Counted from the first letter of the stretch, positions 26,848 to 64,000 are shown. The stretch is 64,000 bases of DNA from Candidatus Omnitrophota bacterium (GCA_041650295.1 JBAZLM010000005.1:36592-100591), one strand, 5' to 3'. Notes: a model not told the origin generated them from the sequence alone. A program made the numbers and translations.

Positions 26848-26853
26848 ACTTTT

Positions 26854-32097: not shown

Positions 32098-32175
32098 TTA
32101 TAATTTACATGCCATTACTCCTAAAGTCAACTTCTTCTTACTATTAGCAAAAGTTTATGCTAAAATAAATTCACA

Positions 32176-33135
32176 ATGAATAATTTTCAAGAGACAATTA
32201 AAAAATATAACTTAATCCAAAAAAACGACAAGCTTTTAGTGGGAGTCTCCGGTGGCCCAGATTCATTAGCGCTACTTTTTCAACTTAATAATTTAAAAAA
32301 TAAATTGAATTTAACTCTACACATTGCTCATCTTGATCACGGATTAAGAAAAGATTCCCACAGAGATCTGCAATTTGTGCAAAAATTAGCTGATCAACTA
32401 GATATCCCTATTACCATAAAAAAAATAAACCCTAAACTTCTAAAAAACAAAGGCTCGCTAGAAGAGGTGTGTCGAGAAGTCAGGCAGGATTTTTTTATTC
32501 AAACTGCCAAAAAAATTAAGGCTAATAAAATCGCCCTAGGCCATAATCTTAACGACCAGGCGGAAACAGTTTTAATGCGCATTTTACGAGGCACCGGATT
32601 GTCCGGACTTAGCGGAATTTGGCCAAAAAGAGAGATTCGTAATATAATTTTTATTCGACCGCTTATAGAAACTTCCCGCAGTGAAATTGAAAGATATTTA
32701 AAACGAAAAAAAATTAATCCTTGTCTGGACCCAACCAATCATGAGGAGTTATTTTTCCGCAATAAAATTAGGTACCACTTAATTCCTATATTAAAAGAAA
32801 AATACAACCAAAATATTGTAGAAGTTCTAGCCAGCCTGGCAGATAATACTGCTTATGATTACGAATACCTTGATCAGGTCACAAAAAACAACTTAAAAGG
32901 CAATCTCAAACATTTAAATATTAAAAAACTGCTCAAGCTACATCCAGCCATCTTGCGCTTAAAAATTAGGCAGGGGATTAGCAATCTTCAAGGAGACACT
33001 CGCCGCATCGGCTTTGTGCATATTAAAGAGGTCGAAGATTTACTCAAAAATAGACCATGCGGGGCAATTGTTGACTTACCCAAAGGAATTTCTGTGCAAA
33101 AAACCCATTCTGCACTACATTTTTACAAACTCTAA
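32176..33135 (+). CDS. tilS: tRNA(Ile)-lysidine synthetase
   Basis: 319 aa. PP-loop LLVGVSGGPDSLALL, HLDHGLR motif. Confidence 0.85.
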   Translation: MNNFQETIKKYNLIQKNDKLLVGVSGGPDSLALLFQLNNLKNKLNLTLHIAHLDHGLRKDSHRDLQFVQKLADQLDIPITIKKINPKLLKNKGSLEEVCREVRQDFFIQTAKKIKANKIALGHNLNDQAETVLMRILRGTGLSGLSGIWPKREIRNIIFIRPLIETSRSEIERYLKRKKINPCLDPTNHEELFFRNKIRYHLIPILKEKYNQNIVEVLASLADNTAYDYEYLDQVTKNNLKGNLKHLNIKKLLKLHPAILRLKIRQGISNLQGDTRRIGFVHIKEVEDLLKNRPCGAIVDLPKGISVQKTHSALHFYKL

Positions 33136-33160
33136 AATTAAATAAATATTTGTTTTAAGC

Positions 33161-33189
33161 TTGAAAAAAGTCATTTTTTATGTTATATT
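33161..33189 (+). promoter_or_regulatory. candidate sigma70 promoter between tilS and the giant gene
   Basis: TTGAAA (33161-33166), 17 nt, TATATT (33184-33189). Confidence 0.4.
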
Positions 33190-33260
33190 TATACCAAGTT
33201 AAGGCTTTTTTAATAAATAGGCCAAAACAATACACTAATGATGACTAAAATAAGTTATAA

Positions 33261-33294
33261 CCGGAATAAAGCAAAAATTCATTCCGGTTTTTTA
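33261..33294 (+). terminator. hairpin + T-run (terminator/attenuator-like) 37 nt upstream of the giant ORF start
   Basis: CCGGAAT-(13 nt loop)-ATTCCGG perfect 7-bp stem followed by TTTTTTT. A TTGACA hexamer follows immediately at 33295-33300. Confidence 0.55.
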
Positions 33295-33331
33295 TTGACA
33301 GATAATAAAACGATTTAAAAAGGAGTATTGA

Positions 33332-36300
33332 ATGAAAACTAAAAATAGCAAAGCTAAAAGAATCTTATCGTTGGTTTTATGTTTCGGTTTAATTTTACAG
33401 CAAATGGGTTTTGCCCAAATCGCTAGCGAATTAAATATAGCCGGCTATTTGGCTAAGTCTAATGCCAATCTGGTCCAAGCCAAATTTAGACCATTAGAGC
33501 TACGCTATTTCTCCTATAACTCCTCAAATGACAATGTTAAGCTACTTGTAGACAAAGGAGATCAGAAAGAATTAAATAGTCTCCAGGTGCAAGAACAATC
33601 TAAATCCCTATTAAACTACTTCTTAATTGGTATCACTCTACCCAACAATACATTCTGGGTTAACTTAAGGCCAGATTCTGAAAACCAAATTATTGATCAA
33701 TATTTAGAGAAAACTGATATCGGCAAGATTATGTTAGAGGCCGACGTGCAACTCAAAAAAGACACCGCCAGATTTACTTCTCCGGAAACCTCTGAAGGCC
33801 GCGTCTACTGGAATAAGCTTTATAAAAAAGCCGAGCAACTTTATGGAACTCAAAATACCACTATTCCCACATTAACTCGTCCCTGGATTGTTCCTGGCGA
33901 AGTAATCATTAGGGAATCAAATGGTAGTGCTTATGTTTACAAAGCCGTGCTCAAGGTCATGTTGGAACAGGACTATTTAAAAAATTCTACCACTTATAAT
34001 TTTAAAGATGACCGCGCCAAAGCATTAAATGAATATTCTAGTCAATTAATTAAAGAGTTAATTATTCCTAATCTAACTAAAGAGATAAACTCTAGCAAAA
34101 GATACGCCGCATTAAGACAAGTTTTTCATTCGCTAGTTTTAGCACATTGGTTTAAATCACGTTTTACCGGTAAAAGCGGTAGCTACGCCGCCATGATTGA
34201 CACTAAAAATCTTACCAATTTAACTTCACAAACAACCTGGTCAAAAACTACTTATTTTAAACAATACCAAGAATCATTTAATAAAGGTGAGTACAACGTC
34301 CAAGAACCGGTTTATACTCCTAGCGGCCAAGTAATCAGAAGCTATTTCAGCGGTGGTATGCAATTTGGAATGAATATGAAATCTCCTCTTTCCCCAAAAG
34401 GAGAAATTGGGATAATAAGCACCGACAATCCGAATCCACCAATAACACCAGAATCAGTGGTGTTTACAAGTAACGATGGGAAGTCTTTAATCGAATCTAC
34501 AATTAACGAAAACGCCCGTTCTCAGGCACCTCCAGTTGTCCAAGCTCAAACTCCTGAAGAAGCAAAAGCAGTACGTTTAGCCGAGCTAGTTCAGTTTGCT
34601 CTGGATCTACAGACAAAGTATCATGGTAAAGCCACTACCGGTAAATTTACCATCTTCTCCGGTCCTCCAGGCGGTGGTAAGAGCTTAGCTTGGGACGGTT
34701 TTGTAAAGGTAATGTTAGAGGCTCTAGTAGCTAAGGGCCAAATTGTTATCGATCCTAAATTATCCAATGATGATAACCTATTTGCTTCCGGACTATTTGA
34801 TAAATTTATTCTTTTTCATACCCGAGCGATGCGTCCAGGAGAAAAACAGGGAGGAATTAAGGATAGTAGCGGAGTAATTCAATCAGGAAATTATTATTAT
34901 AGAACGCCTGAACATTTAGAAAAATTAAAATCAGAAGGTAAAATTATTATTACTTTAGTTAATAATCAACCTCAAGGTTTAGCCCTCTATGATTTTGAAG
35001 ATACCTATACATTTAACGGAGAAACTAACACTGCATTTGTTAGCGGCCTTGCCTCTAAATTAAAACAAGATAAAATCACTATTCTAGAAGGTGGCTTAGG
35101 ATGGTTTGATGAGTTAAATAATGTATTTAAAGATATCGAAACCGATGAACAGCTAAAAGCTACCTTTGAAGGAGTAGCTAATGACGGTTTAAACAGTATC
35201 TTCATCTGTCCATTTACTGATGAGCGGATTATGGAAATTGAAGATAATGTTCAAGTTGAATATGCTCGCGCAGATAGAGGATCTAAAGAAGGCTTAGCCA
35301 TACATCAAGCCGAATACGAAGAAGCTATTGCTATCAGAGGCAGGCTAAAAGCTAAATTAGAATCTCTCATTGCCCAAGGTTCTGATGCTTTAAAAGCAGC
35401 CCTACCACAACTTCAAACTCAGTTCTTTAATATGGACAAGCAGTTCATGTCAAAGGTAGAAGTTGCTCAAGAAGATGCCTTTGGCTATGTTGCCCCAGAC
35501 AAGATCACTTCAGAAGATGCTTTGAGAAAAGCCAGCTTCCAGGAAACAATTGCTAGAATTCATTCTCGTGAAGTAAAAGAAGCCAAGAGTGTTATTGAAA
35601 CTCTAACAAAATTAATCAATGCCGGTGATCTAGAAAAGATCCAAGAATATCTAAATGATGCCAAAGCAATCAGCAAAATACTATATGCTCCGGTTACAAA
35701 TGACGAGTTAATAAAACGTGCCGATGAAGCAGCCCAACAGGTTATCCGCCGTGTTGATTATCAATACATCCTGAATAATGTTTGGATTGTGGATGAAGCA
35801 GAACGTAATATCTTTCAACGTGATTTAGGTGCAAGATTTGCTGAAGATGCCATCGGACCATTAAAAGGAAGGTTTGCTCCGGGCAAGAGTCCTGCTGATG
35901 CATTACAAGTTATTACACAGTCACAATATTTACAGGGTCTTCTAAAGGAAATAGGCTATTTTACATTAACGGATTATTTAAAGGCTTATGCAGAAGAAGC
36001 TCCAAGCTTAGGATTTGAACCTTTGGCTAAGTATCCTAGAACAACGGCTAAACGTGATTTATATACAACTAAAAATTCATTAGTTAATCAAGGAGTTTTA
36101 AGAATAAAAAATCCAGGAGTTAAAGGAGCGCCTTATGAATTTATACTCACAGAAAAAGGTGCCCAAGCTATTTTAGCTAAAGAAGAACAAAAGACCAAGT
36201 TAATTAGTAATTTTGTTACAGTATTAAATAATTATTTAAATAAACACGATTCTAGTAATCCATTAAGTACAAACAATCCTTTTCAAACAAATAATAATCA

Positions 36301-39300
36301 AGGGCCAATTAATTCTCCAGCGATTCCTCCTGCTCCTGTCTCTGCTGGACCGTTAGGGGCGGTGGTGGGTGGAATGGGTGGCCAAACTGCCAGGGCTAGT
36401 GCTTCTTCTGCGATTCATGAAAGAGAAAATTATTTAGCCAGAGCTGAAGAGATGGCTAAATTGATAGATCAATTAATAATTAGATCAAATAATAAAGTAA
36501 ATCCAATTTATACAGGAACAGATCCTCCTGCCGGTAGCATGGGTAGTTCACTCCCAGACTATATCCATGCGTTAATTATGGGAGAAAAAATGTTTGGTGC
36601 TTTAGTAGCAAATGTTTCAAGTAGTGAAGCAGATGCAGCAAGAAATGCAGTTGGAAACTTAAAATTTATGGCGAGCAGGCCAACAGTGGCTGCTCTCCAT
36701 AAATTCCTAAGCGTTGCCAATAGAGCCAAAGGTGCGGCGAAATTTAGCCAAATCCCAGGTTCTATTCGTGCGTATGGCTTCCGCGCCAAGTTTGTAAATG
36801 CCCTCAAGAAGTTAATCGTTATTCCTCAATTAAAAGATCTGGGTAACTCTGAATGGAATGAATTTAAAGGGAATAATCCTACACTTTTAGGTAGAATTTT
36901 TGGTTTTTGTGCAAATGATTTACGTCATTTATTTGGCAAGAACAAGAAATCATCCGATAAAATTATAATTCCGTCAGATGTCAGTCCGGATACTAGGTTG
37001 ATATTAGAACAGTTGCAAAGGATGAATGATAAAATCAATGATGTAAAAACAATAGCTGAAGCCGCAGCAGAAAAAGCCGAAGCCGCTAAGGATTTAAATG
37101 ATAAGTTAAAACACAGATTTGATGATAAATCAAAGTTGCCTTTTGATGATTGTGTTATCGGGATGTGCTATGATTTACTTTATGAAAAATTCTCACCGAA
37201 AAAAGTAGAAGCGCTGGTAAACGAGATTGATAAAGAATTTCGAAAAATAACTGGCATAAAAACCGGTAGTTATGAGGTCCCTAATTTAAATATTTTAGTT
37301 AATGTATTTAAGAATGTAACTGGCCTTGATTTAAAAATTCATAAAGTGAATAAGAATGCTCTTGTTGATTTAGTTCAAAAATATCCCGCTGAAATTGGTT
37401 TAATTGCTAAGCTTCAAAATGGTAAGCATCATGCTTTCACTGGCATGGGTTTAACTGATAAGGGAAATATTCGAATTATGCAAGAGAACTCTGGAGATTT
37501 TAAAGCGGCTCAAGAGATCTCGATTAATAATTTACCAGAAGAAGTGATAGTTGTTACACTTGCTACTTTAAAAGATCAGCAGCTTATTTTAAGTAAAGAG
37601 CTTACTGAAAAAGAGAGAAAAGAAATTAAGGAGATCGGTGGAATAACAGCTGGAGCAGAGGCTGGTACAGGGTCTAGTACAGCCACAGGGGCAGCTGCTG
37701 GAGTGGGATTAAATGGAGCAGCTAGTTCTAATAAAGGTAATGGTAGAGCTGATGGTGGTCAAATTAATCAATCAGTAGTAGGTCTTAGCGGTTTAAGCAT
37801 GACAGGAAATTTAGCGATAAACGTTCCGCAGGTTTCATTCTTTAATCATTTAGGGGCAAATGGTATTCGCGGATCACCGTCATTAACTACAAATCTGATT
37901 AATTTGTTCCGCACTAATTTTGCTACTATTAAAATAGTTGCTCCTAAACTAACTACAAATTTTGCTAAAATCCAAGCCTCTGTAAAATTAAATTACAATA
38001 AAGGTATTAACGCGGCTAGAACTCATTTCGTTAGATCTAGCGATAAGAATGTACGACTAAATAATCCCATCTCTAATACAGAAAAGAAGGCTAGCGCAAC
38101 TGATAATCAGCCGGCGATGGTTAACGTTAATGGCAAAAAAGTTATTGATGGTGACCTTTCGAATAGAACCATTAATCCTAATGACTTAAATAAAGTTGGA
38201 AAGACAAATGAAGAGATTTCCATAGCTACCTCTTCTGATTTAGCAAATAATAATATTCGTGCTCCTCCGACAGTTGCCGCTAAAATTACAAAAATCATTC
38301 GCTCAGTTATTGTTTTCCTCGCTACGGTTATTTCAATTATCTCTGTTACCACTCTGCCAGTTTTTGCGTTAAATAACAACTCTATTGTTACCGGACTTAA
38401 ATCAGCAAACATAATCATGTTTGTGATTGCTGCTGTGATAATTCCTACAAGGATTATTAAAACGACTATTGCTGAAAATAAAGCGGCAAGATATGGTTTT
38501 AGAACGATAGAATTTGATGCTACGGGTAAAAAGTATCTTAAATCGTTAAAAATTCGCGAAGTTAGAAATAATAATGAAAATGGTCAAGCACCGGTTGGGA
38601 TAGCAGTTGTTTTTGCAGCTATTGCGATTATTGGTGCATTATTCTGGCATTATGCGGCTTTTTCATTAGCCGATTTGATTGGCCTGGCTGGAATAGCAAT
38701 TTTTGGTATTGTAGCTATAGCTGCTTTTATCGGTAGCGTAGCAATGGAAAGTGTAGATAATAAAACTGCCGCAGATTTTGGCCGCAAAGTAATTAAGTTT
38801 GCCACGGTTGGTATTGTATTTTTTGGAGCACTTTATTTATTTGCTACTGCTAAAATTCCTGCTGCAGTAGAAGAGGCTATCCGTAACAGTTCATTACAGA
38901 GAGTATTTGATTTCTTAACTGTAAAAATAGGTGGCGGATTAACTGCACCTTTAGTTTTTGGAGCGGTATGGGGAAATTTAAATAATCAGGATCAGCCTTC
39001 TGCAAAACATCAGCCAAGCAATTCTTTACCGGCACAAAAAATTAATCATCATTATTTCAAAAAGATTATTGCTAAGTTATTTGGTTTAAATCATAAAGTA
39101 GCTCCTGCTAAGAAAATTTTACCTGTTTCCAACACCCAGATAAATAAAAATAAAATTTTAGTAAATGATCAACTAGGTCTTGGGGTAACTAATTTTGCCA
39201 AGGCTCCTCCGGTTAAGAGTCCGATTGTGTATTCAGCAAAAACAATTAACTCAACAGTTAACGGAGGAAAAAATGGTAAACTTACTAAAAATTCAAGAAT

Positions 39301-42300
39301 TCAAAGAAACAATGGCCGAATTAGACAATCAGTACAAAATCAGAAGATTGCAAGAGATGCGACAGGTAGCAGTGCTAGAAATGTTAAATCTGAAAAGCAT
39401 GCTAGCAGAAAAACCAGCAAATTAAATCGTTTTTACGCTTGGTTAAAACAGCCTAAAATAGCCAAGTGGGTTAAACTATTAATCGTAGCTAGTTTAATTG
39501 GAGTGGCAACCTTAGTTTTTGCTACCCCGGAGATGGCGGCCAGGGTAAGTAGTATAAATAATGAAGCCATAAGTAACGCAGCGTACTATTTAAGTCCAAA
39601 GGTATTTGTAAAACACGCTATATTTTTTAGTTTTCTGATCTGGGTCAACCGCAGGGGTTATATATTCTTTCCTACATTCGCTTTCTTGTTCGGGATGAAT
39701 CAAGCCAGTCATTTAAATCTAAGATTAATCGGTACACCTTTCTTTATGAATTGGTTCTATAATTGCCTAGATGTTGCTTTATATGCTAGCTTAATATTAG
39801 CTTTTATTGAGTTTTCTAAGGCTGCTAATAAAATAGAGCATTGGGGTAGAGAAACTATTGGTATTTGGCCGGTAAAGATTAAAACAATTGCCAAGGTTGC
39901 GTCTTTCTTTTTCGTAGCTTTAACCGTGCAAGAATTAATGAGCGCAATGTCGTTTACCCGTTTTATGTTAGAAACTTTTTATACTGCGCAAAAGCTCACC
40001 TTTGATCCTTACGATATCCTTGCGTATTTAGGAGGAGGTGTAGCATTTTTCGTCTTAACTAGCATAATGTCAATTTCTAGGCGCCAAGCATTTATTCGAA
40101 AAAATCAGTTAAAGAAAAACAGTGTTAGAATGCAAAAAGATCAAAATAAGGATAATAAAAATAATTTTTTAACAGAAAAGAGAGCGATTCCTGAAGATAA
40201 TAAAACTACTACTTTACATAGTTATGTGTCGGTAGCGGTAATACCTTCAATTGTATTATCGTTAAGTTTTTTTGACGTGGCAGCTAATATCAGCGCTGCT
40301 TTTGTTGCAGTTACGATTGTTGGTGTTATTGGTTGGGGTATTTATCGGTTGGGTAAACTTATTCATAAAATCCTTATATTAAAAGCTAATTCTAAACAGG
40401 ATTTAAATAATGCTTTTGACGATAAAAATGACCCAGCCCGTCCTTTACCTGGTCAGCCGATGCCTACGAGAGAAGAAGCAAACACCGAAGTAGCTAGACA
40501 TGATTTAACGCAATTTGAAACAATTTCCGAAGATCGAGCGGAAGTAAAATTAGCTATAGAATATTTACGTTCGATTAATGAAAATCAATTAGCTCATTAC
40601 TTAGAATATTTAGCTAAAGCCGGATTAATTCGTGCTGGACCATTAGCCGGCTTCTTAGCTACTACTTATATTTTAGATCAAGATAATGATTTTATTCTCC
40701 TGTCCAATCTCTACCCTGCAGAGAATAGCGTTTCAGATTATGCCGCAAGTTTAGTTCATGAGATCGGTGCCATTTTTAAATTCAATCATCAAGAAAATCA
40801 GACACGAGAAGATAATTTCTATACTTGGTTAGCGGCCAAAGTACTTGAGCCGAATTTTGGCGCTGTAGTAAATACTCGTCTTACAACCGAGGCCGCTTCT
40901 GATAATTTTGTTGCCGATAAGAAAGCGCTTCCTTATAATTTCTTCTTCTCAAAATCGAATCGTTCTCGTGGCAATATTTTACCTGCCACTAAACCTTATC
41001 CTGATGCTAAACAATTACACCGCAATCATTCCCCAAAATATCTTTACAAAGATATCAAAGGCAAAGTTAAAGTGTTCTCTATTAAAGACCAGTCGATTCC
41101 TAAATCACAACACGCAGCGGTTCAAGAGATCAATGAAGAAGAGTTAGTGCAATTAGCATTAACCGGCGGATGGAAGGTAGTCGTAGCTAAAGATTATGAT
41201 CAGATGACTTATGCTTCTTTATATTTAGTGATTAAACTTATGCATCTGGCGCAAAGAGAATTTGCTATGGGGTTGGCTACCGGCGGCACCACAGAGTCAC
41301 TGCGCAAGGCGATGGGGTTACTCGATTATAGCCGCAAGATCTTAGATGGTCTTTCTCTTCCTGGGGATAAGGTAAATAAATGGTCTACCTTAGATAACTA
41401 TTATTGGAATAAGCTTGCCGAGATGATTGATGTATTGCTTTCTAGTTACACTCAGGAGCAGGGGTATATGCTTTTAGGGAATATCTATGGTAAAGATAGA
41501 ATAAACTATGATTATTTTGTTACGCCTTATGATAAAACCGACTTAAGTTTAGAGCAGGTAGCAGAAAATTTCCGCCTGCGCATGCGGGTATTTTTAAATG
41601 AGACTTATAGAATATTGGTGCAGTTGCACGGCATTGGTTCAGACGGCCATGATGGTTTTAACGAGATCTATCCATCAATGCCTCTTTTACGTCCAGATTA
41701 TGATTCTGAGCTTTTAGATATTACCAAAGTTCAGAATATCGGTCATTTCTTACCCAAAGGTTTTCATCCTTTCTTTTTAAGATTTATGGCGGATAATAAA
41801 ATTTTTTATATGTCTAGACTCATCGATGTTTTAAATCGTATGGGTTTTGAAAGAATCGCCGGGTATTATCCAGAGTCTAAATACCAATTTGCTTCAGAAA
41901 AAGAGTATCTAGATGAGGTAAAATATCTATTAAAATATTTTAAACTTACTCCGGCTCAGTCGATTACTCAGGGCTCAGGAGATATTCTTGAAAGGACCAA
42001 TAATCCGGATTCTTTAAATCTCTACATGAGTTCAGGAGCGCATAAAGCTACTCCGACTTATGATGCGGTTGAAAAAGAACCGTCTTTATACAATACTGCT
42101 TCTGCTATGCAGCTACAGGCTAATTCTATACTTATTGTAACGCTAGATGCCGCAGTAAAACTTGATCAAAGTAAATGTTTCTTCTTTGTTCCTCAGGCTT
42201 ATAATCCGCTTTTAGTTAGTGCCAAAGCCATTGAAGAGACTTGGCAAGAGACTGCTGAAGGCAGAAGGATCCATGCATTATTAGAAGAGAAGCATGGCAA

Positions 42301-57300: not shown

Positions 57301-60300
57301 ATTCAACGATGAAGAATCGATATATTTTTCTAAAACAATCATTGATGCATTAAATAAGCTATTTTTAGAGCAAGATTTCTTAGATTATTATAATTTAATT
57401 TATCCGCAGAAGTTAGCTATCACTGGAGTAGATCATCAGCCCGGAAGAGATTTAGTAGATATTTTAATTGATACTACTTCTGGACAGCGTGAATTCAAGG
57501 TAGCTTTATATAAATCTGGCTATTCATTAGATAATAACATAGAAAATAGATATTTAAGGATAGCTAGTAGAATTGTCGGATTATATCAAAATTTTCTTTT
57601 GCAAAGAATAGATAATGAATTAGATGCTGTTGGGATTAAAACCGCAGATGTAATTGAACAAATTGAAGATTCATTTCGTCAAACTGTTTACGATCAAGAA
57701 TGGGAATCTTTAAGTGAGGGCTCAGATGCCAAAGTATATAAAAATCAGGATTCTTCATTAGTAATTAAGGCAGTAAAAGAAAGAAGTCTTAGTTATGATT
57801 ATTCTTATAATGTTAATCCTTTTATAAATTATCAATTAGCAAAACAATATTTAGGGCATTTAGCTGTACGTTTTTTAATCTTGGATAATTTGAAAATTAG
57901 ACTCCCAGATAAAGATGGGAATATTGAAGAAGTAATTATTGAAAGAGCGGTTGTGCAGAAATTTGTTAAAGTATTTTTTAAATTAGGAGTACATGACTAT
58001 ACAAAATATGAACATTGTACTGGTATTTTAGCCGATTTGATTAAAGAAGGAAAAATTGAAACGGCAAAATTTATAATTGGTGAATTTTTAAAAGGCGTGC
58101 GAGCAATTTTAGCCCGTGGATTATTTGATTGGGATATCAAAGCAGAGAATTATGGATATGATCCTTCGGTGGGTAAAGTAGCAACATTGGATATGGGTAA
58201 ATTATTGTTATATGATCAGGTTGTGCTTACTTCAGCAAAGGTATTTGTAAGAAATTTAAAAATTACCAGCGATGATATCTATGAATGGACTAAATTTGTT
58301 ATTAATCAAGAAGCGGCTCTTGAATTAAAGAATTATTTTGATACTTCAGTAAAAAAGGTTTTTTGGTTGGCCTATGATGAGGTGGGATTAGATATTACTA
58401 AAGATCTGAATGTTTTAGATAAAGAACATATGTTAGAAGACAGTGTGCGATATGATTTATGTTATGACAATTCAATAGGAAAGCCGGTTAATTATGCCGG
58501 TACTAGAGAAACTAGAGAAAGGGCTGCGCGGTTAATTTCTAAATATTTAAAAGACAATAATATAGATATTGATGCGGTGGAGATGGTTTTTGCTAAATTT
58601 GGTTTTGCCCAGCTTTGCCAAGAAACAGAAGTTTCTAAAATGTTATCCGATGGTTTTGTTTCTGATAATATTTTCTGTCTTGCTTTAGATGAAAATAGCA
58701 ATCCTTATTGCGGTATTAAAGCCAGAGAGCCCAAGAATTTTCCTACTGTTCAATATGTATTATATAACGATGAATATAAAGGCCAGCTTACTACTCGTCA
58801 AGACTCTGTTAATATTAAAAAAGCAGTAGTTAAAACATTGCTTCGATATTATGACTATCGTCAAGAAGTATATGATACTTTAGCAAAAAAATTTGCATTG
58901 GATAAAACTTTAAAAATTTGGAATTCTATGAACTTGAGGGAAGAATTTGAAAAAATAAAATACAATAATTTAAACGTTGATCAGAAGGATACCTTGAATT
59001 TATTATTAGGTATTTGTAAAGATGGTGATTTAGCTGGAAGGATGATCTTGGCTTTCGATGAGTTGGCAGAGACCAGAAGATATCCTTTTGGCATAGATTT
59101 GAATAAGATGTATTTGATTAAGTCCGAGAATGATTTTGCCGTTGAGGTCTTTGGGATGGGTACCTTTACTCGGAAAACCCAGGAAAAAGAGGTGCTCTTG
59201 CATATGCATCAAAATCTTAGCTTTTCTTACGAGGATATTTTGGAGGCGATTGTAGAAAGTAAAGATGAGATGGGTGCAACTATTTTTATTAGTAAGGTTT
59301 ATTTTCAGTGTAGTGCAATGGATAGCGAGCTTAAAGAAGTATTAATGAAAAAATTAAACCAGCTTCGTTCCTCTGATTATACTGGCGTATTTGATAGTGT
59401 TGTAAATGGTTTACCTAAGAATCATTTGCTTTGCTCAGCGAACAATTTAACTGATCAAAATAATGCCTATCCTTTACCGGTGCCGGAAGCGGTTCGCTCT
59501 GATATAAATAAAACATTTATTAATTCCACGGTAAATAATTTAGAAATACAGACTTCTCATATTCCGGTGAATGCTTATTTTGAGTCGCTGCAAAATATTT
59601 TAAGCGTTTTTAAAAAATGTTTTGGTCGCGCTCCCCCGAGATTAGGTCTCTGGCAATTGCTTGTTTCCACGGATTTAAGCTTAACGCGAGGCAAGGTTGC
59701 CGCCTGCGATATTAAATCCCGAACTGTTTATCTGCACACTTATTTTTTTCAACTTTCCCAAGCTAAACAATTAGAAATTCTTTATCATGAGCTCATTAGC
59801 CATATGCAAAAGGGTATCGCCGATGAAAATATTGCTCTGCGTGATACGAATGCTTTCTTTTGGCTACAACCCAATGCTCCCCAACTAGTCGGGAAAACGT
59901 TGATGACTTTATCGATGGAAGGTAATATTCCGGAATTTGCCGGATATCCGGATGCGCAGAATGCTTGTACTCGGGGTGGATTAGGTGCATATTTTGGCGA
60001 TAAGTTGGAAGGGTTGTTTGCGATTGGCTTGACTGCCTGGGGCGTTGAGCCGGCTTATGCTTATACTACTAGAGATGGAAAAGATATCGCCGTGGATTAT
60101 GCGCCATTATTTAATCAGGGCGTGATTAGTAAAGTTTTAGATAAAAATGGTGCTCCTTTAGTGTTACAAGTTTATGCTTGGGATGATCAATGCAAAAGTT
60201 CACTTTATAAGGATAAATCCATCGCGGTGGAAGTTTGGCTGGTTAACCGCGGAGGCACGCCGCTATATCTTTTATACTCACAGGAAGTATTTAATAATCT

Positions 60301-63300
60301 TTATACGGATAATCGTGCACATCGTTTTACTCAGGAGATAGTTTTTGGTAAAGCGGTTTATTGTTTAATGAAGACACTTAAAATTGTTCCGGATATTATG
60401 CATTTAAATGAGGCGCATACCGTAGTGGCTGCCGCGCAGGCTAGAGCGGACAATGATTTTAACAAAATGGTTATTGTTTATACCAATCACACATTAGTTC
60501 CGGCTGGACTGGAAATTTTTCATGCTTCCAATTTGGGCGTAGACTCTAACCGGATGATGTATCAAATTGGCGTGCCGGCGGAAGAAGAGTGCAAGTTTCG
60601 TTCATATTTTTTACGTGCGAACGGAATGGTAGATTTTTGTTCTGCAGCAGTGCATTTAGCCGATGTCATTAATGCGGTGAGCTTAGAGCATGCGGCGGCA
60701 ACACAGAGACTTTTCCGTTCGATGTATGGTGATGAATTCAAGACTAAAGTTGTGGGTGTACTTAATGGTTCAGGTAAAACTTGGATGAATGATTCATTAA
60801 GGGTAATTCAAGATCGTGGTCTAATGGCTAATCAGGAAGAGTTAAACTTAATTCATCAAAAGGGTAAAATAGAGGCTTTTGCAGAGATTGAAGCCAGAAC
60901 CCAGGTGCAATTAGATTTAAGCAAACCAACGATTTGGATGGTGCGTCGGATTGTAGATTATAAGAGCCAGTATCCGATGTTACGATTTTTATTACATATT
61001 TTGTGTGCTGATCGCAATATTAGCTATACGCGCGATCAACTGCAAACAGCTTGGTTTAGAGATATTCCGGATTTATTAACACAAGAGAATCGTAATTTAT
61101 CGCAAGAGGTGTTGAATTATATTTTTGCCCAAAAAGAAAGGGTTTTCGGTTTAGGATTTCAGGTAGTGGTGGGCGGTCCGGAGTATATGTCATTTTGGAT
61201 TGCTGAATTTAAACGTTGGTCGCTACTTCCTGAATTTAGAGGAAAATTTATTTATGTGCCAAATTCGGATGCCCGCTTGCTTAAGATGCAAGCCATTGGG
61301 GCGGATATTTGTATTAATATCCCTCGACCGTTAGAAGAGGCTTGCGGAACTTCTGATCAAAGAACTGGATTAAACGGTGGGGTTAATGTGGCTATCCGTG
61401 GCGCTGGTCCGGTAGAGTGGATCACCGATTATAATGAACAGAGTAAAGCGGGAAGTGGATTTTTATTAGAGTCATATACTAATACTGTAGATAATGAAGT
61501 TACTGCAGATAATTATTTATTTTATCGTAAGGCACCGGCCGATATTCTTTCTAAGTTAGAAGTAGCGCGTGGATTGTTTGATCTGCAAGATAAGTCTGCT
61601 TGGAAAAAATTGATGCACGATGCTTACCTTGACGCTAACGCTAAAGTGAGCGCTAAAGCGATGGAACAGCGTTATGCTTTAAATGTTTACCAACCTAAGG
61701 CGACAGATGAATTAAGAAAAAAAATAGCGCAAGCTAATGATTTCCCGCTTTCTGCGATGGAGATGATGGATGTGTTAGAGCTGGGAATTTGCCAGCAGGA
61801 TAAGCAATTGCTTTTTGATTTATTAGCCAGGGTAAAATCCACAATTTTTCCTGCCGCCACCGGGCGGATTATGAAAACGATGATGAAGATTTGCGACCGG
61901 TATGGGTATGAGATTACTCAAGCGCAGGCAGATATTTTGCTAAGTTTTGCGGATAATTTATATTTCCCGGAAGAAATCTGCGAATTTTTTACTAAAACAC
62001 AATGGCGTGGCTACGCTTTTAATTATTTAAATGAAAAATTCCAAAAAATTCATCCGGATGCAAGCATTAGTTACGCTCCGACGCGGCGAAGAAACTTGTT
62101 GTCAAGTTTAAGTATTTTAGCTAAAGACGCTGGCTTACTACAAGAAACTTTAGACCAAATATGGTTTAATTCAGCGGTTAGGTTTAGCCGAAGATATATT
62201 ACTTACGAACTTAGAGAAGGTAGAATTAGTGAAGTTAAAGATGAGGCGATAATTTTTATTTATCATAAAAATCCTAACGGCAAAATAAGTTATGAATCGA
62301 TTTATGCGCATGGAAAAGTTAGGCCTGATCATCGGACCTTGTCGCCAGGTCAGAAATATATGGGTAAAGTGTTTAAAGTCGGAGAAATTTATGAGGGGAT
62401 GCCGGCATTTGATTTCAATGGAGAAGAAATATTAAAAGATTGCGATGAGAATATCCTTTCTTTACGGGGGACATACACTGAGCTGGAAAGTGTAGTAGGG
62501 GGATTTGTAAGATTGGATCTGCCCAGACTTCCGGTAGAACAATTATTAAATGTTACCGGTGAAAAAGATCTAGATGCTTATATTTTTAGACAAATTGTGT
62601 CGGCAGCGAAATTTATGGCAGCCATTGTTAACCCGCAGAAAGAATTAGTCTTAGAAGCGTTGATCAAAGAGAGCTTAGAAAAAAGATTTAATCGCTCATT
62701 GCCTTTACGTTTTTCGATCGAAGATTTTAATCGTTGGGTAGCCGGGGAGCAAGTTTTAGGAATTCAGAATCAGCAAAAAATAGTTATTCCAAATTGCGCT
62801 GAACTTGAGTCGGTTTGTGTTTCTGACTCAGATGGAATACATCCTAGATTTGCATTAGCTTTAAGAGATATGCTTGATGAAAAATTTCCGGGGGTACAAG
62901 TAGTTTTAGAAAAAGCTGATGGAAGAATGGCTTTTGCCAGTGATGATCAGGAAATTACCAAGTTGGCTTGTACGCAGGGTGAAGTAATCTATGTATTTGC
63001 TTGGGGTGATAGTCATCGCCATGCTGCTGCGGCCTTGGATAGAGTTATTTCGTTAATTAATCCTAATGGACGTACTATTGGTCTTACTTTTGGTCACGGT
63101 CGAGGTCTGGTGATGAGAGCCGATGAAGTTTTAGCTGTGCAGCAAAGCGGAAAGACTATCCATCATCCTTTTCTGTTGGCGGGAAAAAATCCAGCTGATT
63201 TGGAGAATGTAATTTTGGAAATTTCTTCTTGGGGCGCATTACAGGGGGTGATGACGGTTAGCGGCGGTGAGTTTAACCATGTTGCGGTAAATTTTAGAGA

Positions 63301-64000
63301 TAATTATGTGTCGAACATTCCCTGGTTAAGCGGAGTGGATGCGGATTATATGCAAGGTCTTTTTGGCAAAGAAATAGAGTTAATCGTGGATAAAACTAAG
63401 CTGCCGATAATTAGAGTGGTTAGCGCGCAGGAAGATAATCGTTGGGTAAATTGTACGCTCAAAGCCCCTAACACCGATGACTTAATGCATCGATTTAATT
63501 GCGACATTACCTACATTGAGCAGGTAATTAAAAATGCTGAAGAGACCGCGGTGCCGGAAAGTTTCATTAATACGATTACCGATCAAGGATTCGACGATTT
63601 AATTAAAGCTATTCTGGGCCAACGCTCTCCGCATATTCGCTTGTTTGTGGTAAAAGCGCCTGCAATTGCTAATTTATTCGGTATTCCTCGTTACCAGAAT
63701 GCAGTTTTAGCACGCGACACGATTCCAGTTTATACTGTACCGGATAATGCTGGCAATCTTTGTTGTTACGTTACGCAGAATTTTTATGATTCGCTTTTGG
63801 TTGACCCGTGGTTATTTTGTTTTGCTCTAGATCATGAATTTTATGAAAAAGGTACGGTTCCTCACCGTGTGCATAAACAGGCCTGGCAAGATCGGGGAAG
63901 CTTAGAATGCTTTGCTGATCCGGCGACCGGAATTAATAAGTTCATAAAGCTTTATATTGATCGCTTATTTGCTGAAGGCGATATTGAAGGGTTAGACCGA
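33332..64000 (+). CDS. giant multidomain secreted/membrane protein, 5' complete and 3' end beyond the window (>=10,223 codons, >=30.7 kb)
   Basis: ATG at 33332 is preceded by in-frame TGA and by AAAGGAG 8 nt upstream. My hand translation of every codon to 64000 found no in-frame stop. Frame consistency (codon starts = 2 mod 3) was verified at embedded motifs: acetate kinase 51185, radical SAM 52559, PGM 55298, phosphorylase 61334. It is absent from the ORF track because no stop lies within the window. Signal peptide [29 protein letters not shown]. Confidence 0.85.
   Translation, partial: [10223 protein letters not shown]
49400..49850 (+). other. HD-domain phosphohydrolase-like region embedded in the giant ORF
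   Basis: [12 protein letters not shown] ... [13 protein letters not shown] ... HYHFSS ... [12 protein letters not shown]. The H...HD...H...D pattern defines the HD superfamily. Confidence 0.6.
51160..52310 (+). other. acetate/propionate kinase (AckA)-like domain embedded in the giant ORF
   Basis: [77 protein letters not shown], ...[12 protein letters not shown]. All acetate kinase signature segments are in order. An ~45-aa insertion precedes the C-terminal subdomain. Confidence 0.8.
52500..53650 (+). other. radical SAM domain with C-terminal SPASM-like cysteine cluster, embedded in the giant ORF
   Basis: CQYNCPTC (CX3CX2C), [11 protein letters not shown] glycine-rich SAM motif. Downstream CLACPWCSF...HCVEL...CPPVC resembles SPASM/twitch auxiliary-cluster cysteines. 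Confidence 0.7.
55280..56830 (+). other. alpha-D-phosphohexomutase (phosphoglucomutase/phosphomannomutase) domain embedded in the giant ORF
   Basis: RFGTSGWRS, active-site loop [13 protein letters not shown], metal loop AVDGDADRF, sugar-binding GGEESAH, phosphate-binding [15 protein letters not shown]. All four PGM/PMM loops are in canonical order. Confidence 0.8.
59880..61560 (+). other. GT35 alpha-glucan (glycogen/maltodextrin) phosphorylase-like domain embedded in the giant ORF
   Basis: [11 protein letters not shown] (cf. YSGGLGVLAGD), PLYLL, [20 protein letters not shown] (cf. HLNEGHAAF), [11 protein letters not shown] (cf. TTHTPVPAG), [28 protein letters not shown] (cf. EASGTSGMKAALNG...LDGWW). 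Confidence 0.7.

What the first reader, a model, noticed from the sequence alone, without database searches (positions are those of the whole stretch)
33332..64000. Giant uninterrupted ORF of at least 30.7 kb running off the window end, absent from the ORF track
From the ATG at 33332 every codon to 64000 reads through without TAA/TAG/TGA. I translated the whole stretch by hand (10,223 codons). Recognisable protein motifs recur in the same frame across 30 kb (codon starts all = 2 mod 3 at 33332, 51185, 52559, 55298, 61334), which excludes chance and hidden frameshifts. The ORF track lists only short minus-strand and frame-0 ORFs here because this frame has no stop inside the window. Flanking genes translate normally in code 11, so this is not a recoding artefact. 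Genes this size are extremely rare. The product carries a signal peptide, two blocks of TM helices, internal repeat families and more than ten enzyme-like domains. Giant genes have been reported in a few uncultivated lineages (for example Omnitrophota) but remain essentially uncharacterised, and this mosaic of metabolic-enzyme folds is not a described architecture.
Basis: seen in the sequence. Interest (0 to 1): 0.95.

Follow-up and report, generated by a model that had tools for sequence, protein, structure and literature searches.

The report
Omnitrophota giant multi-enzyme membrane gene
This is a real, uninterrupted gene of at least 30.7 kb from an uncultivated Omnitrophota bacterium that strings many metabolic enzymes onto one membrane-anchored protein; such giant genes are already documented in this phylum, so it is a new example of a known kind, but it starts with a conserved 'cap' shared with thousands of much smaller enzyme-fusion proteins.

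Summary
Window 33332-64000 is one open frame of 10,223 codons with no stop, while the other five frames carry 489-1,240 stops. Codon usage matches the neighbouring housekeeping genes along its whole length.

Neighbour synteny and homologues place the window in Candidatus Omnitrophota. Genes over 20 kb are common there. This domain set is already published as the 'Archaeovorin' / 'multi-enzyme metabolic cluster' type: HEAT, phosphoglucomutase, a starch-synthase/glucan-phosphorylase-like GT-B domain, radical SAM, NUDIX, kinases, a signal peptide and TM helices.

New details:
- **N-cap.** The first ~343 aa are a highly conserved cap found in more than 5,600 protein clusters, always N-terminal. 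It includes a 2,097-aa paralogue in this window.
- **C-cap.** Complete family members also end in a 'GGIDF' C-cap. The giant has not reached one by 64000.
- **Synteny.** A related genome carries a 1,349-aa capped protein with unrelated cargo at the same locus.
- **Connectors.** Four internal repeat families join the enzymes. One is a zincin-like HExxH module beside TM hairpins.

Which side of the membrane the enzymes occupy, and the full gene length, remain unresolved.

The parts
33161..33189 (+). Promoter-like site (TTGAAA, 17 nt spacer, TG-TATATT)
   Evidence: Consensus scan only. The region is conserved in the syntenic locus L002. Not evidence of function.
33259..33295 (+). Leader hairpin AACCGGAAT..ATTCCGGTT followed by a T-run. 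It is either the terminator of the upstream gene or an attenuator.
   Evidence: RNA fold z=-3.6. The stem and T-run are conserved in L002. No Rfam family reaches threshold. The simple terminator scan did not call it.
33321..33325 (+). Ribosome-binding site AGGAG, 6 nt before the ATG
   Evidence: Read directly from the sequence.
33332..64000 (+). Giant ORF, first 10,223 codons, truncated by the window end
33332..33415 (+). Signal-peptide-like N-terminus (aa 1-28). n-region MKTKNSKAKR, h-region ILSLVLCFGLIL, c-region QQMGFA|Q.
   Evidence: Inspection only. The motif QQxGFAQ is conserved across the family. No signal-peptide predictor was available.
33416..34360 (+). N-cap, the conserved family-defining module (aa 29-343)
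   Evidence: 55-73% identity to hundreds of Omnitrophota proteins, always at their N-terminus. 5,640 cluster representatives at E<=1e-30. AF2 pLDDT 75.8. No PDB fold relative. No Pfam or NCBIfam model matches.
34613..35473 (+). Guanylate-kinase-like P-loop domain 1 (aa 428-714, GPPGGGKS)
   Evidence: 34% identity to the N-terminal domain of P0121, which has a weak Pfam Guanylate_kin hit. Motif found.
35840..36232 (+). Guanylate-kinase-like P-loop segment 2 (aa 837-967, GRFAPGKS)
   Evidence: 55-67% identity to two segments of P0001, which carries PF00625.
38306..38845 (+). TM block 1, about 5 hydrophobic helices (aa 1659-1838)
   Evidence: Kyte-Doolittle scan.
39470..40333 (+). TM block 2, about 4 hydrophobic helices (aa 2047-2334)
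   Evidence: Kyte-Doolittle scan.
42290..42727 (+). Repeat module A, copy 1. Zincin-like, HELLH at aa 3075.
   Evidence: Related to copy 2 at E 1e-30. HExxH plus a downstream E are invariant in 4 copies.
42788..42907 (+). TM hairpin 1 (aa 3153-3192), followed by repeat module B copy 1 (aa 3176-3254)
43448..43840 (+). Repeat module C, copy 1 (aa 3373-3503)
   Evidence: phmmer E 1e-31 to 1e-37 among the three copies.
44087..45004 (+). Uridine-kinase/PRK-like P-loop kinase, split by an insert (aa 3586-3891)
   Evidence: Pfam PF00485 E 3e-7. NCBIfam uridine kinase in 2 stretches, below cutoff.
47303..48196 (+). Repeat module C copy 2 (aa 4658-4789) followed by repeat module D copy 1 (aa 4779-4955)
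48542..48949 (+). NUDIX hydrolase domain (aa 5071-5206)
   Evidence: Pfam PF00293 E 2e-5, above the gathering score. The strict NUDIX-box regex did not match.
50687..51082 (+). Repeat module C, copy 3 (aa 5786-5917), directly before the acetate kinase
51164..52267 (+). Acetate/propionate-family kinase domain (aa ~5945-6312)
   Evidence: Pfam PF00871 E 1e-109. NCBIfam TIGR00016 scores 364 bits, above its cutoff of 293.
52541..53608 (+). Radical SAM plus SPASM domain (aa 6404-6759). CQYNCPTC at aa 6410 and a Cys cluster at aa 6693-6759.
   Evidence: Pfam PF04055 and PF13186. Motifs found.
53744..54187 (+). Repeat module A, copy 2. Zincin-like metallopeptidase fold, HELFH at aa 6895.
54266..54634 (+). 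Conserved domain of unknown function (aa 6979-7101), shared with capped protein P0136
   Evidence: BLASTP 37% identity, E 6e-21. My by-eye papain/transglutaminase-like reading is unverified. No Pfam or PDB hit.
54770..54898 (+). TM hairpin 2 (aa 7147-7189), followed by repeat module B copy 2
54932..55189 (+). HEAT repeats (aa 7201-7286)
   Evidence: Pfam PF13646 and PF03130.
55292..56806 (+). Phosphoglucomutase/phosphomannomutase/GlmM-type domain, all four subdomains (aa 7321-7825). Active-site motifs SASHNP, DGDADR and GEESA are intact.
   Evidence: Pfam PF02878/79/80 and PF00408. NCBIfam. Motifs.
56795..57307 (+). Repeat module D, copy 2 (aa 7822-7992)
   Evidence: Three further copies occur in the unrelated giant ORF L081.
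57338..59365 (+). Conserved ~680-aa region of unknown function (aa 8003-8678)
   Evidence: 31% identity over 737 aa to P0121, E 5e-83.
59975..61696 (+). GT-B alpha-glucan phosphorylase / starch-synthase-like domain (aa 8882-9455)
   Evidence: NCBIfam TIGR02094 matched over positions 19-600 of 600, at 124 bits, below its cutoff of 192. PDB 9l6i alpha-glucan phosphorylase E 3e-17. Pfam Glyco_transf_5 E 5e-11.
63446..64000 (+). Conserved segment (aa 10039-10223), 68% identical to part of another giant ORF (L081)
10971..17264 (+). Paralogue in the same window: a 2,097-aa capped protein. It has an N-cap, then glutamate-dehydrogenase-like and UDP-glucose-pyrophosphorylase-like cargo, then a GGIDF C-cap.
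   Evidence: N-cap 61.5% identical to the giant's. Cargo by Pfam. C-cap HMM E 1e-40.

Best explanation
**Identity (well supported).** This is the 5' part (at least 30.7 kb) of one genuine chromosomal gene of an uncultivated Candidatus Omnitrophota bacterium. It belongs to the already described class of Omnitrophota giant multi-enzyme proteins, called 'Archaeovorin-type' or 'multi-enzyme metabolic cluster'. It is also the longest member seen here of a very large Omnitrophota-specific family. That family is built as: signal-like N-terminus, conserved ~315-aa N-cap, variable enzyme cargo, and a conserved ~115-aa 'GGIDF' C-cap.

**How it most likely works (inferred).**
- The N-terminal signal sequence engages the Sec pathway and places the N-cap outside the cytoplasmic membrane.
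- The TM blocks (aa 1659-2334) and two TM hairpins (aa 3153-3192, 7147-7189) hold the chain in the membrane.
- This tethers a linear array of catalytically intact enzymes: P-loop nucleoside/nucleotide kinases, NUDIX, acetate kinase, radical SAM/SPASM, phosphoglucomutase, and an alpha-glucan phosphorylase-like GT-B domain.
- The enzymes are joined by repeated connector modules.
- Together they would form a membrane-bound platform for alpha-glucan and sugar-phosphate turnover, acyl-phosphate-linked ATP formation and nucleotide handling.

Two zincin-like HExxH modules sit next to the TM hairpins. They may trim or cleave the chain; this is speculative.

**Evolution.** The giant form arose by loading more cargo between the conserved caps at a locus that holds a 1.3-kaa capped protein in a relative.
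For: **Real ORF.** 0 stops in 10,223 codons against 489-1,240 in the other frames. Codon usage is uniform. An independent assembly confirms the 5' end.

**Omnitrophota.**
- Hits to the N-cap are named Candidatus Omnitrophota/Omnitrophica wherever a source gives a name.
- More than 572 copies occur in GTDB genomes, and the best 80 are almost all Omnitrophota MAGs.
- Locus L002, from an Omnitrophota MAG, has the two upstream genes at 83% and 69.5% aa identity. It also has a conserved leader.

**Known class.** The Pfam/NCBIfam domain set equals the sets described.

**Family.**
- The N-cap is found in 7,454 cluster representatives (5,640 at E<=1e-30), always N-terminal.
- 110 of 120 hits, and 47 of 52 complete ORFs in fetched loci, end with the GGIDF C-cap.
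- Members of 4,375 and 6,439 aa keep both caps.
- HMMs find no internal N-cap or C-cap in the giant.
- A paralogue lies in the same window.

**Intact active sites.** Radical SAM CxxxCxxC plus SPASM cysteines. PGM SASHNP / DGDADR / GEESA. P-loops. Acetate kinase above the NCBIfam cutoff.

**Anchoring.** Hydropathy analysis and K/R-rich flanks on both sides of the two hairpins.

**Connectors.** Repeat families A-D. Families A and D recur in a different giant ORF, L081, and families A and C recur in Omnitrophota fragments P0204 and P0203.

Against: - The gene is truncated by the window. Its length, C-terminus and any C-cap are unseen.
- No read-level check of the assembly was possible beyond the 5' 1.2 kb.
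- The signal peptide and TM helices rest on inspection and a Kyte-Doolittle scan, not on a dedicated predictor.
- Topology is internally inconsistent. Two ATP-type P-loop domains lie between the N-cap and the first TM helix. The flank upstream of TM1 is K/R-rich. Most mid-sized family members have a signal-like N-terminus, no TM helix and cofactor-dependent cargo.
- The module A model has low confidence (pLDDT 57).
- Profile comparison shows no relation between modules C or D and the zincin-like module A.
- NUDIX, uridine kinase and the phosphorylase-like domain score below the family-specific NCBIfam cutoffs or lack strict motifs.
- No expression or proteomic evidence exists for this gene.
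Confidence: 0.75

Rival explanations
1. **Exported cargo carrier.** The signal peptide, N-cap and C-cap constitute a dedicated sorting or assembly system. Capped proteins, the giant included, are moved out of the cytoplasm. They end up in the periplasm, in a surface coat, or in attached prey or host cells, and their enzymes work there.
For: - The N-terminus is a classical Sec-type n-h-c region, conserved across the family.
- 100 of 121 members have no other hydrophobic segment.
- The caps are far more conserved (55-73%) than the cargo.
- A standalone enolase coexists with a capped, divergent enolase (31% identity) in one MAG. Capped enzymes are therefore extra copies.
- Published DeepTMHMM and TMHMM runs also place such enzyme domains outside.
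Against: - The cargo needs ATP, NAD, SAM or Fe-S clusters: PGK, GAPDH, PPDK and radical SAM. These are not expected outside the cytoplasm, and Sec export of Fe-S enzymes is not expected.
- No twin-arginine motif is present.
- No secretion machinery is conserved next to family members in 77 loci.
- The giant has about 13 TM segments, which would retain it in the membrane.
Confidence: 0.3
2. **Polyprotein precursor.** The giant chain is cut at or near the repeated connector modules. The cutting is done by its own zincin-like module A, or by other peptidases. This releases separate enzymes or sub-complexes.
For: - Two HExxH zincin-like modules have invariant catalytic residues.
- Connector families A-D lie exactly between enzyme domains.
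- West-Roberts et al. proposed cleavage of giant proteins by built-in C39 or S8 peptidases.
Against: - No cleavage sites are known.
- The module A model has low confidence.
- Modules C and D have no detectable peptidase relationship.
- M48/M56-type domains often act on other substrates.
- There are no proteomic data for this protein.
Confidence: 0.25
3. **Predation or adhesion factor, as proposed for Archaeovorins.** A surface-exposed protein that binds prey and digests its cell wall.
For: - It has the same overall class and phylum as the V. archaeovorus protein. Peptides of that protein rose 3-fold in attached cells.
- It has HEAT repeats and a glucan-active GT-B domain.
- The related giant L081 carries GH2/GH72-like TIM-barrel hits.
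Against: - In the 10,223 aa seen here, Pfam finds no glycoside hydrolase, lytic transglycosylase, dockerin, lectin, adhesin repeat or peptidoglycan-binding domain.
- No type II secretion or pilus genes lie in the 33 kb upstream.
- The recognisable content is intracellular-type metabolism.
Confidence: 0.2
4. **Artefact.** A misassembled or chimeric contig that joins separate genes, or a non-coding stretch that is open by chance.
For: Giant repetitive genes are hard to assemble.
Against: - The chance of an open frame is about 1e-345.
- In-frame Pfam domains occur along 30 kb.
- Codon usage is uniform.
- There are almost no DNA tandem repeats.
- An independent assembly confirms the 5' end.
- Comparable ORFs come from complete long-read genomes.
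- L081 is another ORF that stays open across its whole 20.5 kb.
Confidence: 0.03

Closest known systems
Archaeovorin-type giant proteins of Omnitrophota (West-Roberts et al. 2023, bioRxiv 10.1101/2023.11.21.568195; type: the 39,678-aa protein of Velamenicoccus archaeovorus LiM)
   Same: - Same phylum.
- A single ORF of tens of kb.
- A signal-like N-terminus followed by a long N-terminal region without known domains.
- Many TM helices.
- HEAT repeats, a GT5/glycogen-synthase-like GT-B domain, NUDIX, radical SAM, PGM/PMM and other sugar-phosphate enzymes.
- Embedded peptidase-like modules.
   Different: - Only 10,223 aa are visible, whereas their set was at least 30,000 aa.
- No SecA_DEAD, C39 or S8 peptidase, glycoside hydrolase, methyltransferase or TPR hit in the visible part.
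- The peptidase-like element here is a zincin (HExxH) module.
- No type II secretion genes lie upstream.
- Sequence homology to the type protein was not testable.
'Multi-enzyme metabolic cluster' class and sugar-metabolism Pfam module of Omnitrophota proteins of at least 10 kaa (Nielsen & Lui 2026, bioRxiv 10.64898/2026.06.07.730766)
   Same: - Length of at least 10 kaa.
- Many distinct Pfams, with none dominating.
- PF08323, PF02878/79/80 and PF04055 co-occur.
- NUDIX and HEAT are present.
- SP+TM topology class.
- Few DNA-level tandem repeats despite protein-level repeats.
- Sequence-level singleton.
   Different: - Their description is by Pfam co-occurrence.
- The text I searched does not mention the shared N-cap or C-cap, or the connector families A-D.
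Unnamed N-cap/C-cap family of Omnitrophota enzyme-fusion proteins. Examples are NCBI 'MAG: phosphoglycerate kinase [Candidatus Omnitrophota bacterium]' of 1,165-2,428 aa, proteins P0001-P0202 here, and window ORF 10971-17264.
   Same: - The N-terminal ~343 aa are 55-73% identical.
- Cargo types overlap: guanylate-kinase-like, PGM, NUDIX and radical SAM.
- Same phylum.
- Several copies per genome.
   Different: - The giant is at least 1.6 times longer than the longest member seen (6,439 aa).
- It has TM blocks, which most members lack.
- It uses connector modules A-D, which are absent from 202 family proteins checked.
- It lacks the SSP linker motif that is enriched in mid-sized members.
- Its C-cap has not been seen.
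Minigluzincin / M48 (HtpX, BepA, Ste24) / M56 (BlaR1) zinc metallopeptidases, compared with repeat module A only
   Same: - An HExxH helix preceded by a small beta-sheet and followed by a helix carrying an invariant Glu.
- Position immediately next to TM helices.
   Different: - No sequence-level match to any Pfam, NCBIfam or PDB entry.
- The model has low confidence.
- It is embedded twice in a giant chain rather than being a free-standing membrane protease.

Membership tests
Omnitrophota giant genes (ORF >20 kb; Seymour et al. 2023, PMC10066038) | Single ORF longer than 20 kb | tested here: met
   30,669 nt open inside the window.
Omnitrophota giant genes (ORF >20 kb; Seymour et al. 2023, PMC10066038) | Encoded in an Omnitrophota genome | tested here: met
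   Synteny with Omnitrophota MAG locus L002, with neighbours at 83% and 69.5% aa identity. The N-cap family is restricted to Omnitrophota-labelled records, plus a few generically labelled MAGs. No marker-gene phylogeny was run.
Archaeovorin-type giant protein (West-Roberts et al. 2023) | Size class of the defining set (>=30,000 aa / >90 kb) | not testable with these tools
   The ORF runs off the window at 10,223 aa. The source contig could not be extended.
Archaeovorin-type giant protein (West-Roberts et al. 2023) | Numerous transmembrane regions | tested here: met
   About 13 hydrophobic segments by Kyte-Doolittle scan. No dedicated predictor was used.
Archaeovorin-type giant protein (West-Roberts et al. 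2023) | Characteristic domain set (HEAT, GT5/GT1, NUDIX, radical SAM/SAM enzymes, glycolytic-type enzymes, peptidases, glycosyl hydrolases, methyltransferases) | tested here: inconclusive
   Present: HEAT, a GT5/phosphorylase-like domain, NUDIX, radical SAM, PGM/PMM and a zincin-like module. Absent from the visible 10,223 aa: GT1, glycosyl hydrolase, methyltransferase, TPR and PPDK.
Archaeovorin-type giant protein (West-Roberts et al. 2023) | Divergent SecA_DEAD / SecA preprotein-binding domain ('most' members) | tested here: not met
   No PF07517 hit at E<=0.01 in aa 1-10,223, and no DEAD motif. It could lie downstream.
Archaeovorin-type giant protein (West-Roberts et al. 2023) | C39 or S8 peptidase near the N-terminus (some members) | tested here: not met
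   The N-terminal 3,500 aa have no Pfam peptidase hit. The N-terminus is the N-cap instead.
Archaeovorin-type giant protein (West-Roberts et al. 2023) | Type II secretion / pilus / carbohydrate-import genes nearby (many members) | tested here: not met
   None among the ORFs of the 33 kb upstream. The downstream side is not visible.
Multi-enzyme metabolic cluster class of >=10-kaa proteins (Nielsen & Lui 2026) | >=10,000 aa, with many distinct Pfams and none dominating by copy number | tested here: met
   10,223 aa visible. About 10 distinct Pfam families, each present once.
Multi-enzyme metabolic cluster class of >=10-kaa proteins (Nielsen & Lui 2026) | Sugar-metabolism module: PF08323 + PGM/PMM (PF02878/79/80) + radical SAM PF04055 | tested here: met
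   All are present in one frame.
N-cap/C-cap Omnitrophota enzyme-fusion family (defined here) | Conserved ~340-aa module at the extreme N-terminus | tested here: met
   Family HMM E 6e-187 at aa 6-347. 55-73% identity to members.
N-cap/C-cap Omnitrophota enzyme-fusion family (defined here) | Conserved 'GGIDF...' module of ~115 aa at the extreme C-terminus | not testable with these tools
   The C-terminus lies outside the window. No C-cap occurs within aa 1-10,223. That fits an unfinished ORF.
Minigluzincin/M48/M56 zinc metallopeptidases (module A only) | HExxH zinc-binding helix plus a downstream Glu ligand | tested here: met
   H91, E92, H95 and E103 are invariant in 4 copies from 3 proteins.
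Minigluzincin/M48/M56 zinc metallopeptidases (module A only) | Zincin fold | tested here: inconclusive

The most novel reading that the evidence does not exclude
The giant ORF is the extreme end of a previously undescribed Omnitrophota-wide 'capped cargo' system.
- A conserved signal-bearing N-cap has a fold with no solved relative. A conserved GGIDF C-cap closes the protein.
- Between them sit interchangeable enzyme cargo, ranging from one enzyme to dozens.
- The cargo includes extra, divergent copies of the whole glycolytic enzyme set.

Under this reading the caps are sorting or assembly handles. They would place central-metabolic enzymes in a non-cytoplasmic location, such as the periplasm, a surface coat or the prey. 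Alternatively, they would polymerise the enzymes into a membrane-bound metabolon. The caps would also serve as recombination handles, which would explain why syntenic loci carry unrelated cargo of 1.3 kaa versus more than 10 kaa.

Giant genes would then be a quantitative extension of this system rather than a separate invention.
Probability: 0.3. Interest if true: 0.8.

Novelty: new member of a known kind. Interest (0 to 1): 0.45.

Why it matters
As a giant ORF this is one more example of a phenomenon documented in thousands of Omnitrophota proteins, so the bare observation adds little.

Its value is as a well-delimited case that links two things treated separately so far:
- the giant proteins;
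- a very large family (more than 5,600 sequence clusters) of 1-6-kaa enzyme-fusion proteins that share the same N-terminal cap and, when complete, a C-terminal cap.

That link gives concrete, testable handles on the open question of what Omnitrophota giant proteins do and where they sit:
- a short conserved N-cap and C-cap that can be expressed, localised and used as bait;
- a predicted signal-cleavage site (GFA|Q);
- a candidate built-in zincin peptidase;
- a syntenic locus pair that shows cargo replacement.

If the enzyme cargo really is outside the cytoplasm, it would change how the energy metabolism of these ultra-small episymbionts is understood.

Tried and rejected
1. **Extending the gene.**
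   - An exact 42-mer from the window end found nothing in JGI metagenome contigs.
   - The look-up of encoding contigs on three neighbouring genes gave two short Logan contigs of 2.9 and 6.8 kb and no record for the third. The 50-200-kb contigs on record were not shown.
   - The length remains unknown.
2. **Orthologue search.**
   - The dark 3,205 aa (aa 381-3585) returned one weak hit, P0121.
   - The connector query returned two fragments.
   - None of the 78 GTDB loci is collinear beyond the N-cap.
   - L081 shares modules but is not collinear.
   - The word index limits sensitivity, so 'orphan' is only provisional.
3. **Internal repeats.** BLASTP self-comparison and TRF reported none. That was a false negative for the protein level. 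phmmer on overlapping pieces found four families.
5. **Modules C and D as degenerate zincins.** Rejected. hhalign probabilities were at most 1.4%, and there were no Pfam or PDB hits.
6. **A transglutaminase/papain-like domain at aa 6979-7101.** This was my by-eye reading only. No tool supports it, so it is not claimed.
7. **SSP[ILV] linker motif as a processing site.** It is strongly enriched in mid-sized members (180 observed against 12 expected) but absent from the giant and its paralogue. It is not relevant to this ORF.
8. **Conserved secretion genes next to family members.** None were found. The recurring neighbours are housekeeping genes: dnaN, gyrB, gyrA, glmS and rsmI.
9. **Invalid alignment.** Alignment A2 contains a fourth row that I mistyped and that is not real data. 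It is not used. A3 replaces it.
10. It was redone with full-length P0204.

Full report
**1. Observation**

The frame that starts at ATG 33332 is open to the last base of the window: 10,223 codons with no stop. An in-frame TGA immediately precedes the ATG. The other five frames of the same 30.7 kb contain 489-1,240 stops. At 36% GC the chance of an open frame is about 1e-345.

Codon usage correlates at r=0.78-0.90 with the housekeeping genes of the window in each of ten 3-kb slices, and GC1>GC2>GC3 holds throughout. The ORF lister omits ORFs that run off the source, which explains why this one is 'absent from the ORF track'.

The start codon is well supported:
- An AGGAG lies 6 nt upstream.
- The N-termini of hundreds of homologues align from residues 2-10.
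- A contig from an independent assembly (Logan, SRR8542065) is identical over window 31654-34531.

**2. Where the window comes from**

The 33 kb upstream is ordinary bacterial chromosome. It encodes:
- LepA, signal peptidase I, PgsA, PlsY, GatA, GatB, a Ctp protease and TsaD;
- bactofilin and PurE;
- a Wood-Ljungdahl block (two CdhD-family ORFs, RACo and a CooC-like ATPase);
- a flippase and a PF01171 ATP_bind_3 (TilS-family) protein.

Locus L002 comes from a MAG named Candidatus Omnitrophota bacterium SO_2016_LW1_34. It carries the two genes just upstream of the giant at 83% and 69.5% aa identity, in the same order, with a conserved intergenic leader. Every named homologue of the N-terminal module is Candidatus Omnitrophota or Omnitrophica. 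The best 80 of more than 572 genomic copies are almost all Omnitrophota MAGs; a few carry generic or probably wrong labels. I did not run a marker-gene phylogeny.

**3. Anatomy of the visible 10,223 aa**

- aa 1-28: signal-peptide-like n-h-c region ending in GFA|Q. This is by inspection.
- aa 29-343: N-cap (see section 4).
- aa 428-714 and 837-967: two guanylate-kinase-like P-loop segments. They were found only through homologues P0121 and P0001.
- aa 1659-1838 and 2047-2334: two TM blocks.
- aa 3586-3891: split uridine-kinase/PRK-like domain.
- aa 5071-5206: NUDIX.
- aa ~5945-6312: acetate/propionate kinase. Pfam E 1e-109; TIGR00016 at 364 bits, above its cutoff of 293.
- aa 6404-6759: radical SAM plus SPASM, with CQYNCPTC.
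- aa 7201-7286: HEAT repeats.
- aa 7321-7825: four-subdomain phosphoglucomutase/GlmM-type enzyme with intact SASHNP, DGDADR and GEESA loops.
- aa 8882-9455: GT-B domain. Pfam calls it starch-synthase-like. It covers the whole alpha-glucan-phosphorylase model TIGR02094 (124 bits, below cutoff) and matches PDB alpha-glucan phosphorylases.

About half of the chain has no Pfam, NCBIfam or PDB sequence match.

**4.

The first ~343 aa are 55-73% identical to the N-termini of hundreds of Omnitrophota proteins of about 900-2,800 aa. Their remaining sequence differs. It carries PGK, GAPDH, enolase, TIM, aldolase, PGM, G6P isomerase, PPDK/PEP synthase, iPGM, guanylate kinase, NUDIX, radical SAM, methyltransferases, DnaJ, metallophosphoesterase and more.

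An exhaustive HMMER search of 1.84 billion cluster representatives finds 7,454 members, 5,640 of them at E<=1e-30. The module is always N-terminal, and lengths in the top 150 reach 6,439 aa.

The family also shares a C-terminal module that starts with GG[IVL]D[FL]R about 112-135 aa before the end:
- It is present in 110 of 120 hits.
- It is present in 47 of 52 complete ORFs in fetched genomic loci.
- It is present in the 4,375-aa and 6,439-aa members.

A second member lies in this same window. ORF 10971-17264 (2,097 aa) has an N-cap 61.5% identical to the giant's, glutamate-dehydrogenase-like and UDPGP-like cargo, and a C-cap.

Family HMMs find exactly one N-cap and no C-cap in the giant. It is therefore not a run of fused family genes. 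Its missing C-cap fits an ORF that continues beyond 64000.

At the syntenic position, L002 has a capped protein of only 1,349 aa whose cargo is unrelated to the giant's. This suggests that cargo between the caps is replaced or expanded over evolutionary time.

**5. Connector repeats**

phmmer on overlapping 300-aa pieces reveals four repeat families placed between the enzymes:
- A: aa 2987-3132 and 6805-6952
- B: aa 3176-3254 and 7174-7250
- C: aa 3373-3503, 4658-4789 and 5786-5917
- D: aa 4779-4955 and 7822-7992

A, then a TM hairpin, then B form a composite unit that occurs twice.

None of these families occurs in 202 mid-sized family proteins. Modules C and A do occur in partial Omnitrophota proteins P0203 and P0204 respectively. 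Modules A and D (three copies of D) occur in L081. L081 is from a different organism (44% GC, JGI contig of 104 kb). Its 20.5 kb is again a single open frame, with other enzyme cargo.

Modules C and D have no detectable relatives and no profile similarity to A.

**6. Comparison with the literature**

- ORFs over 20 kb occur in 77/116 Velamenicoccia genomes and in most other Omnitrophota classes (PMC10066038).
- West-Roberts et al. 2023 report proteins up to 85,804 aa. They define 'Archaeovorins' by HEAT, GT5, NUDIX, radical SAM, PGM/PMM and other glycolytic-type domains, many TM helices, frequent SecA_DEAD domains and N-terminal C39/S8 peptidases.
- Nielsen & Lui 2026 report proteins up to 147,155 aa, 5,761 proteins of at least 10 kaa, a 'multi-enzyme metabolic cluster' class, and a sugar-metabolism Pfam module (PF08323, PF02878-80, PF04055). 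They report 94% with TM helices or a signal peptide, and mostly sequence singletons.

The present ORF fits these descriptions. In its visible part it lacks SecA_DEAD, C39/S8, glycoside hydrolases and nearby type II secretion genes.

**7. Mechanism**

*Shown:*
- It is one ORF.
- Catalytic motifs of several enzymes are intact.
- Hydrophobic blocks and hairpins are present.
- The caps and connectors are conserved.

*Inferred:*
- Sec-dependent insertion, with the N-cap outside.
- Membrane tethering of a cytoplasmic enzyme array. The supporting reasoning is that radical SAM/Fe-S and ATP-dependent enzymes need the cytoplasm, by established biochemistry, and that both flanks of each hairpin are K/R-rich.

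*Speculative:*
- Cleavage by the zincin-like modules.

*Unresolved paradox:*
- Most capped proteins have a signal-like N-terminus, no TM helix and cofactor-dependent cargo.
- The giant itself has P-loop domains on the N-cap side of the first TM helix.
- A standalone enolase next to a capped member shows that capped enzymes can be extra, divergent copies. This keeps alive the reading that the cargo acts in a separate location.
- No secretion machinery is conserved next to family members.

**8. Verdict**

- Novelty: a new member of a known kind.
- Interest is moderate at 0.45, and comes from the cap family, the synteny pair and the connector/zincin modules rather than from the size of the ORF.
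- The most novel reading not excluded is a phylum-wide capped-cargo sorting or assembly system, of which giant genes are the extreme. I give it a probability of about 0.3.

Noticed in passing
window 10971-17264 (+): A 2,097-aa paralogue of the giant's family. It has a signal-like N-terminus and N-cap (61.5% identical), then glutamate-dehydrogenase-like (PF00208/PF05088/PF21078) and UTP-glucose-1-P uridylyltransferase-like (PF01704) cargo, then a GGIDFR C-cap at aa 1974. It has no internal hydrophobic segment. It is identical in length, and in the C-terminal stretch checked, to library protein P0186.
   Followed up: yes
proteins P0001-P0120 (family members from other genomes): The short motif SSP[ILVMAT] is about 15-fold enriched (180 observed against 12 expected). 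It sits at fixed places: about aa 383 just after the N-cap, at domain junctions, and about 11 aa before the GGIDF C-cap. It looks like a linker, modification or processing motif. It is absent from the giant and from the window paralogue.
   Followed up: partly
window 33136-33331 and L002 4220-4411: The 196-nt leader before the giant gene is conserved in a related genome. It has a promoter-like TTGAAA/TG-TATATT, a stable hairpin with a T-run (33259-33295; fold z=-3.6) and a conserved AAAAAGGAG. It could be the upstream gene's terminator or an attenuator. No Rfam family matches.
   Followed up: partly
window 25516-30440 (+): A Wood-Ljungdahl-type gene block: two CdhD-family ORFs (one with an N-terminal Fe-S domain), the RACo corrinoid activase and a CooC/ParA-like ATPase. 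This suggests an acetogenic or acetyl-CoA-pathway metabolism. In that setting the acetate-kinase domain inside the giant could matter.
   Followed up: no
window 4540-7509 (+) and 7525-10725 (-): Two large convergent ORFs (989 and 1,066 aa) that are almost unannotated. The first has a single TPR hit and the second has no Pfam hit.
   Followed up: no
window ~44000-64000: GC skew of the coding strand jumps from about 0.06 to 0.2-0.3 at around 44 kb and stays high. This coincides with the start of the enzyme-rich part. There Glu and Asp rise from about 2-5% to 6-9% of residues. It is probably an amino-acid-composition effect rather than a replication signal.
   Followed up: partly
L081 (JGI Ga0074195_1000320, 29845-50399): Another giant ORF, open over all 20,554 nt fetched (6,851 codons), on a 104-kb contig of 44% GC. 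It has different cargo: GH2/GH72-like, metallophosphoesterase, WD40, phosphoribosyltransferase, methyltransferase and GNAT. It shares connector modules A and D with the window's giant. It contains a highly similar internal duplication (aa ~141-306 and 855-1018), each copy ending in the same hydrophobic helix.
   Followed up: partly
L066 1479-2759 (MAG JAKAMF01): A standalone 427-aa enolase lies 1.1 kb upstream of a capped family member. It is only 31% identical to the enolase carried as capped cargo in other members. Capped glycolytic enzymes are therefore not simply the housekeeping copies.
   Followed up: partly
loci L039, L043, L071, L049, L075 and others: A subset of capped family genes sits in a conserved housekeeping neighbourhood: dnaN, gyrB and gyrA in 7-10 loci, and glmS and rsmI in 12 loci each. 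This suggests at least one ancient, positionally conserved family member near the replication-origin region.
   Followed up: no
L021, L037, L043, L075: Four capped ORFs are still open after 3,684-3,717 aa at the end of the fetched 10-kb flank, on contigs that continue. More large or giant capped members probably exist.
   Followed up: no
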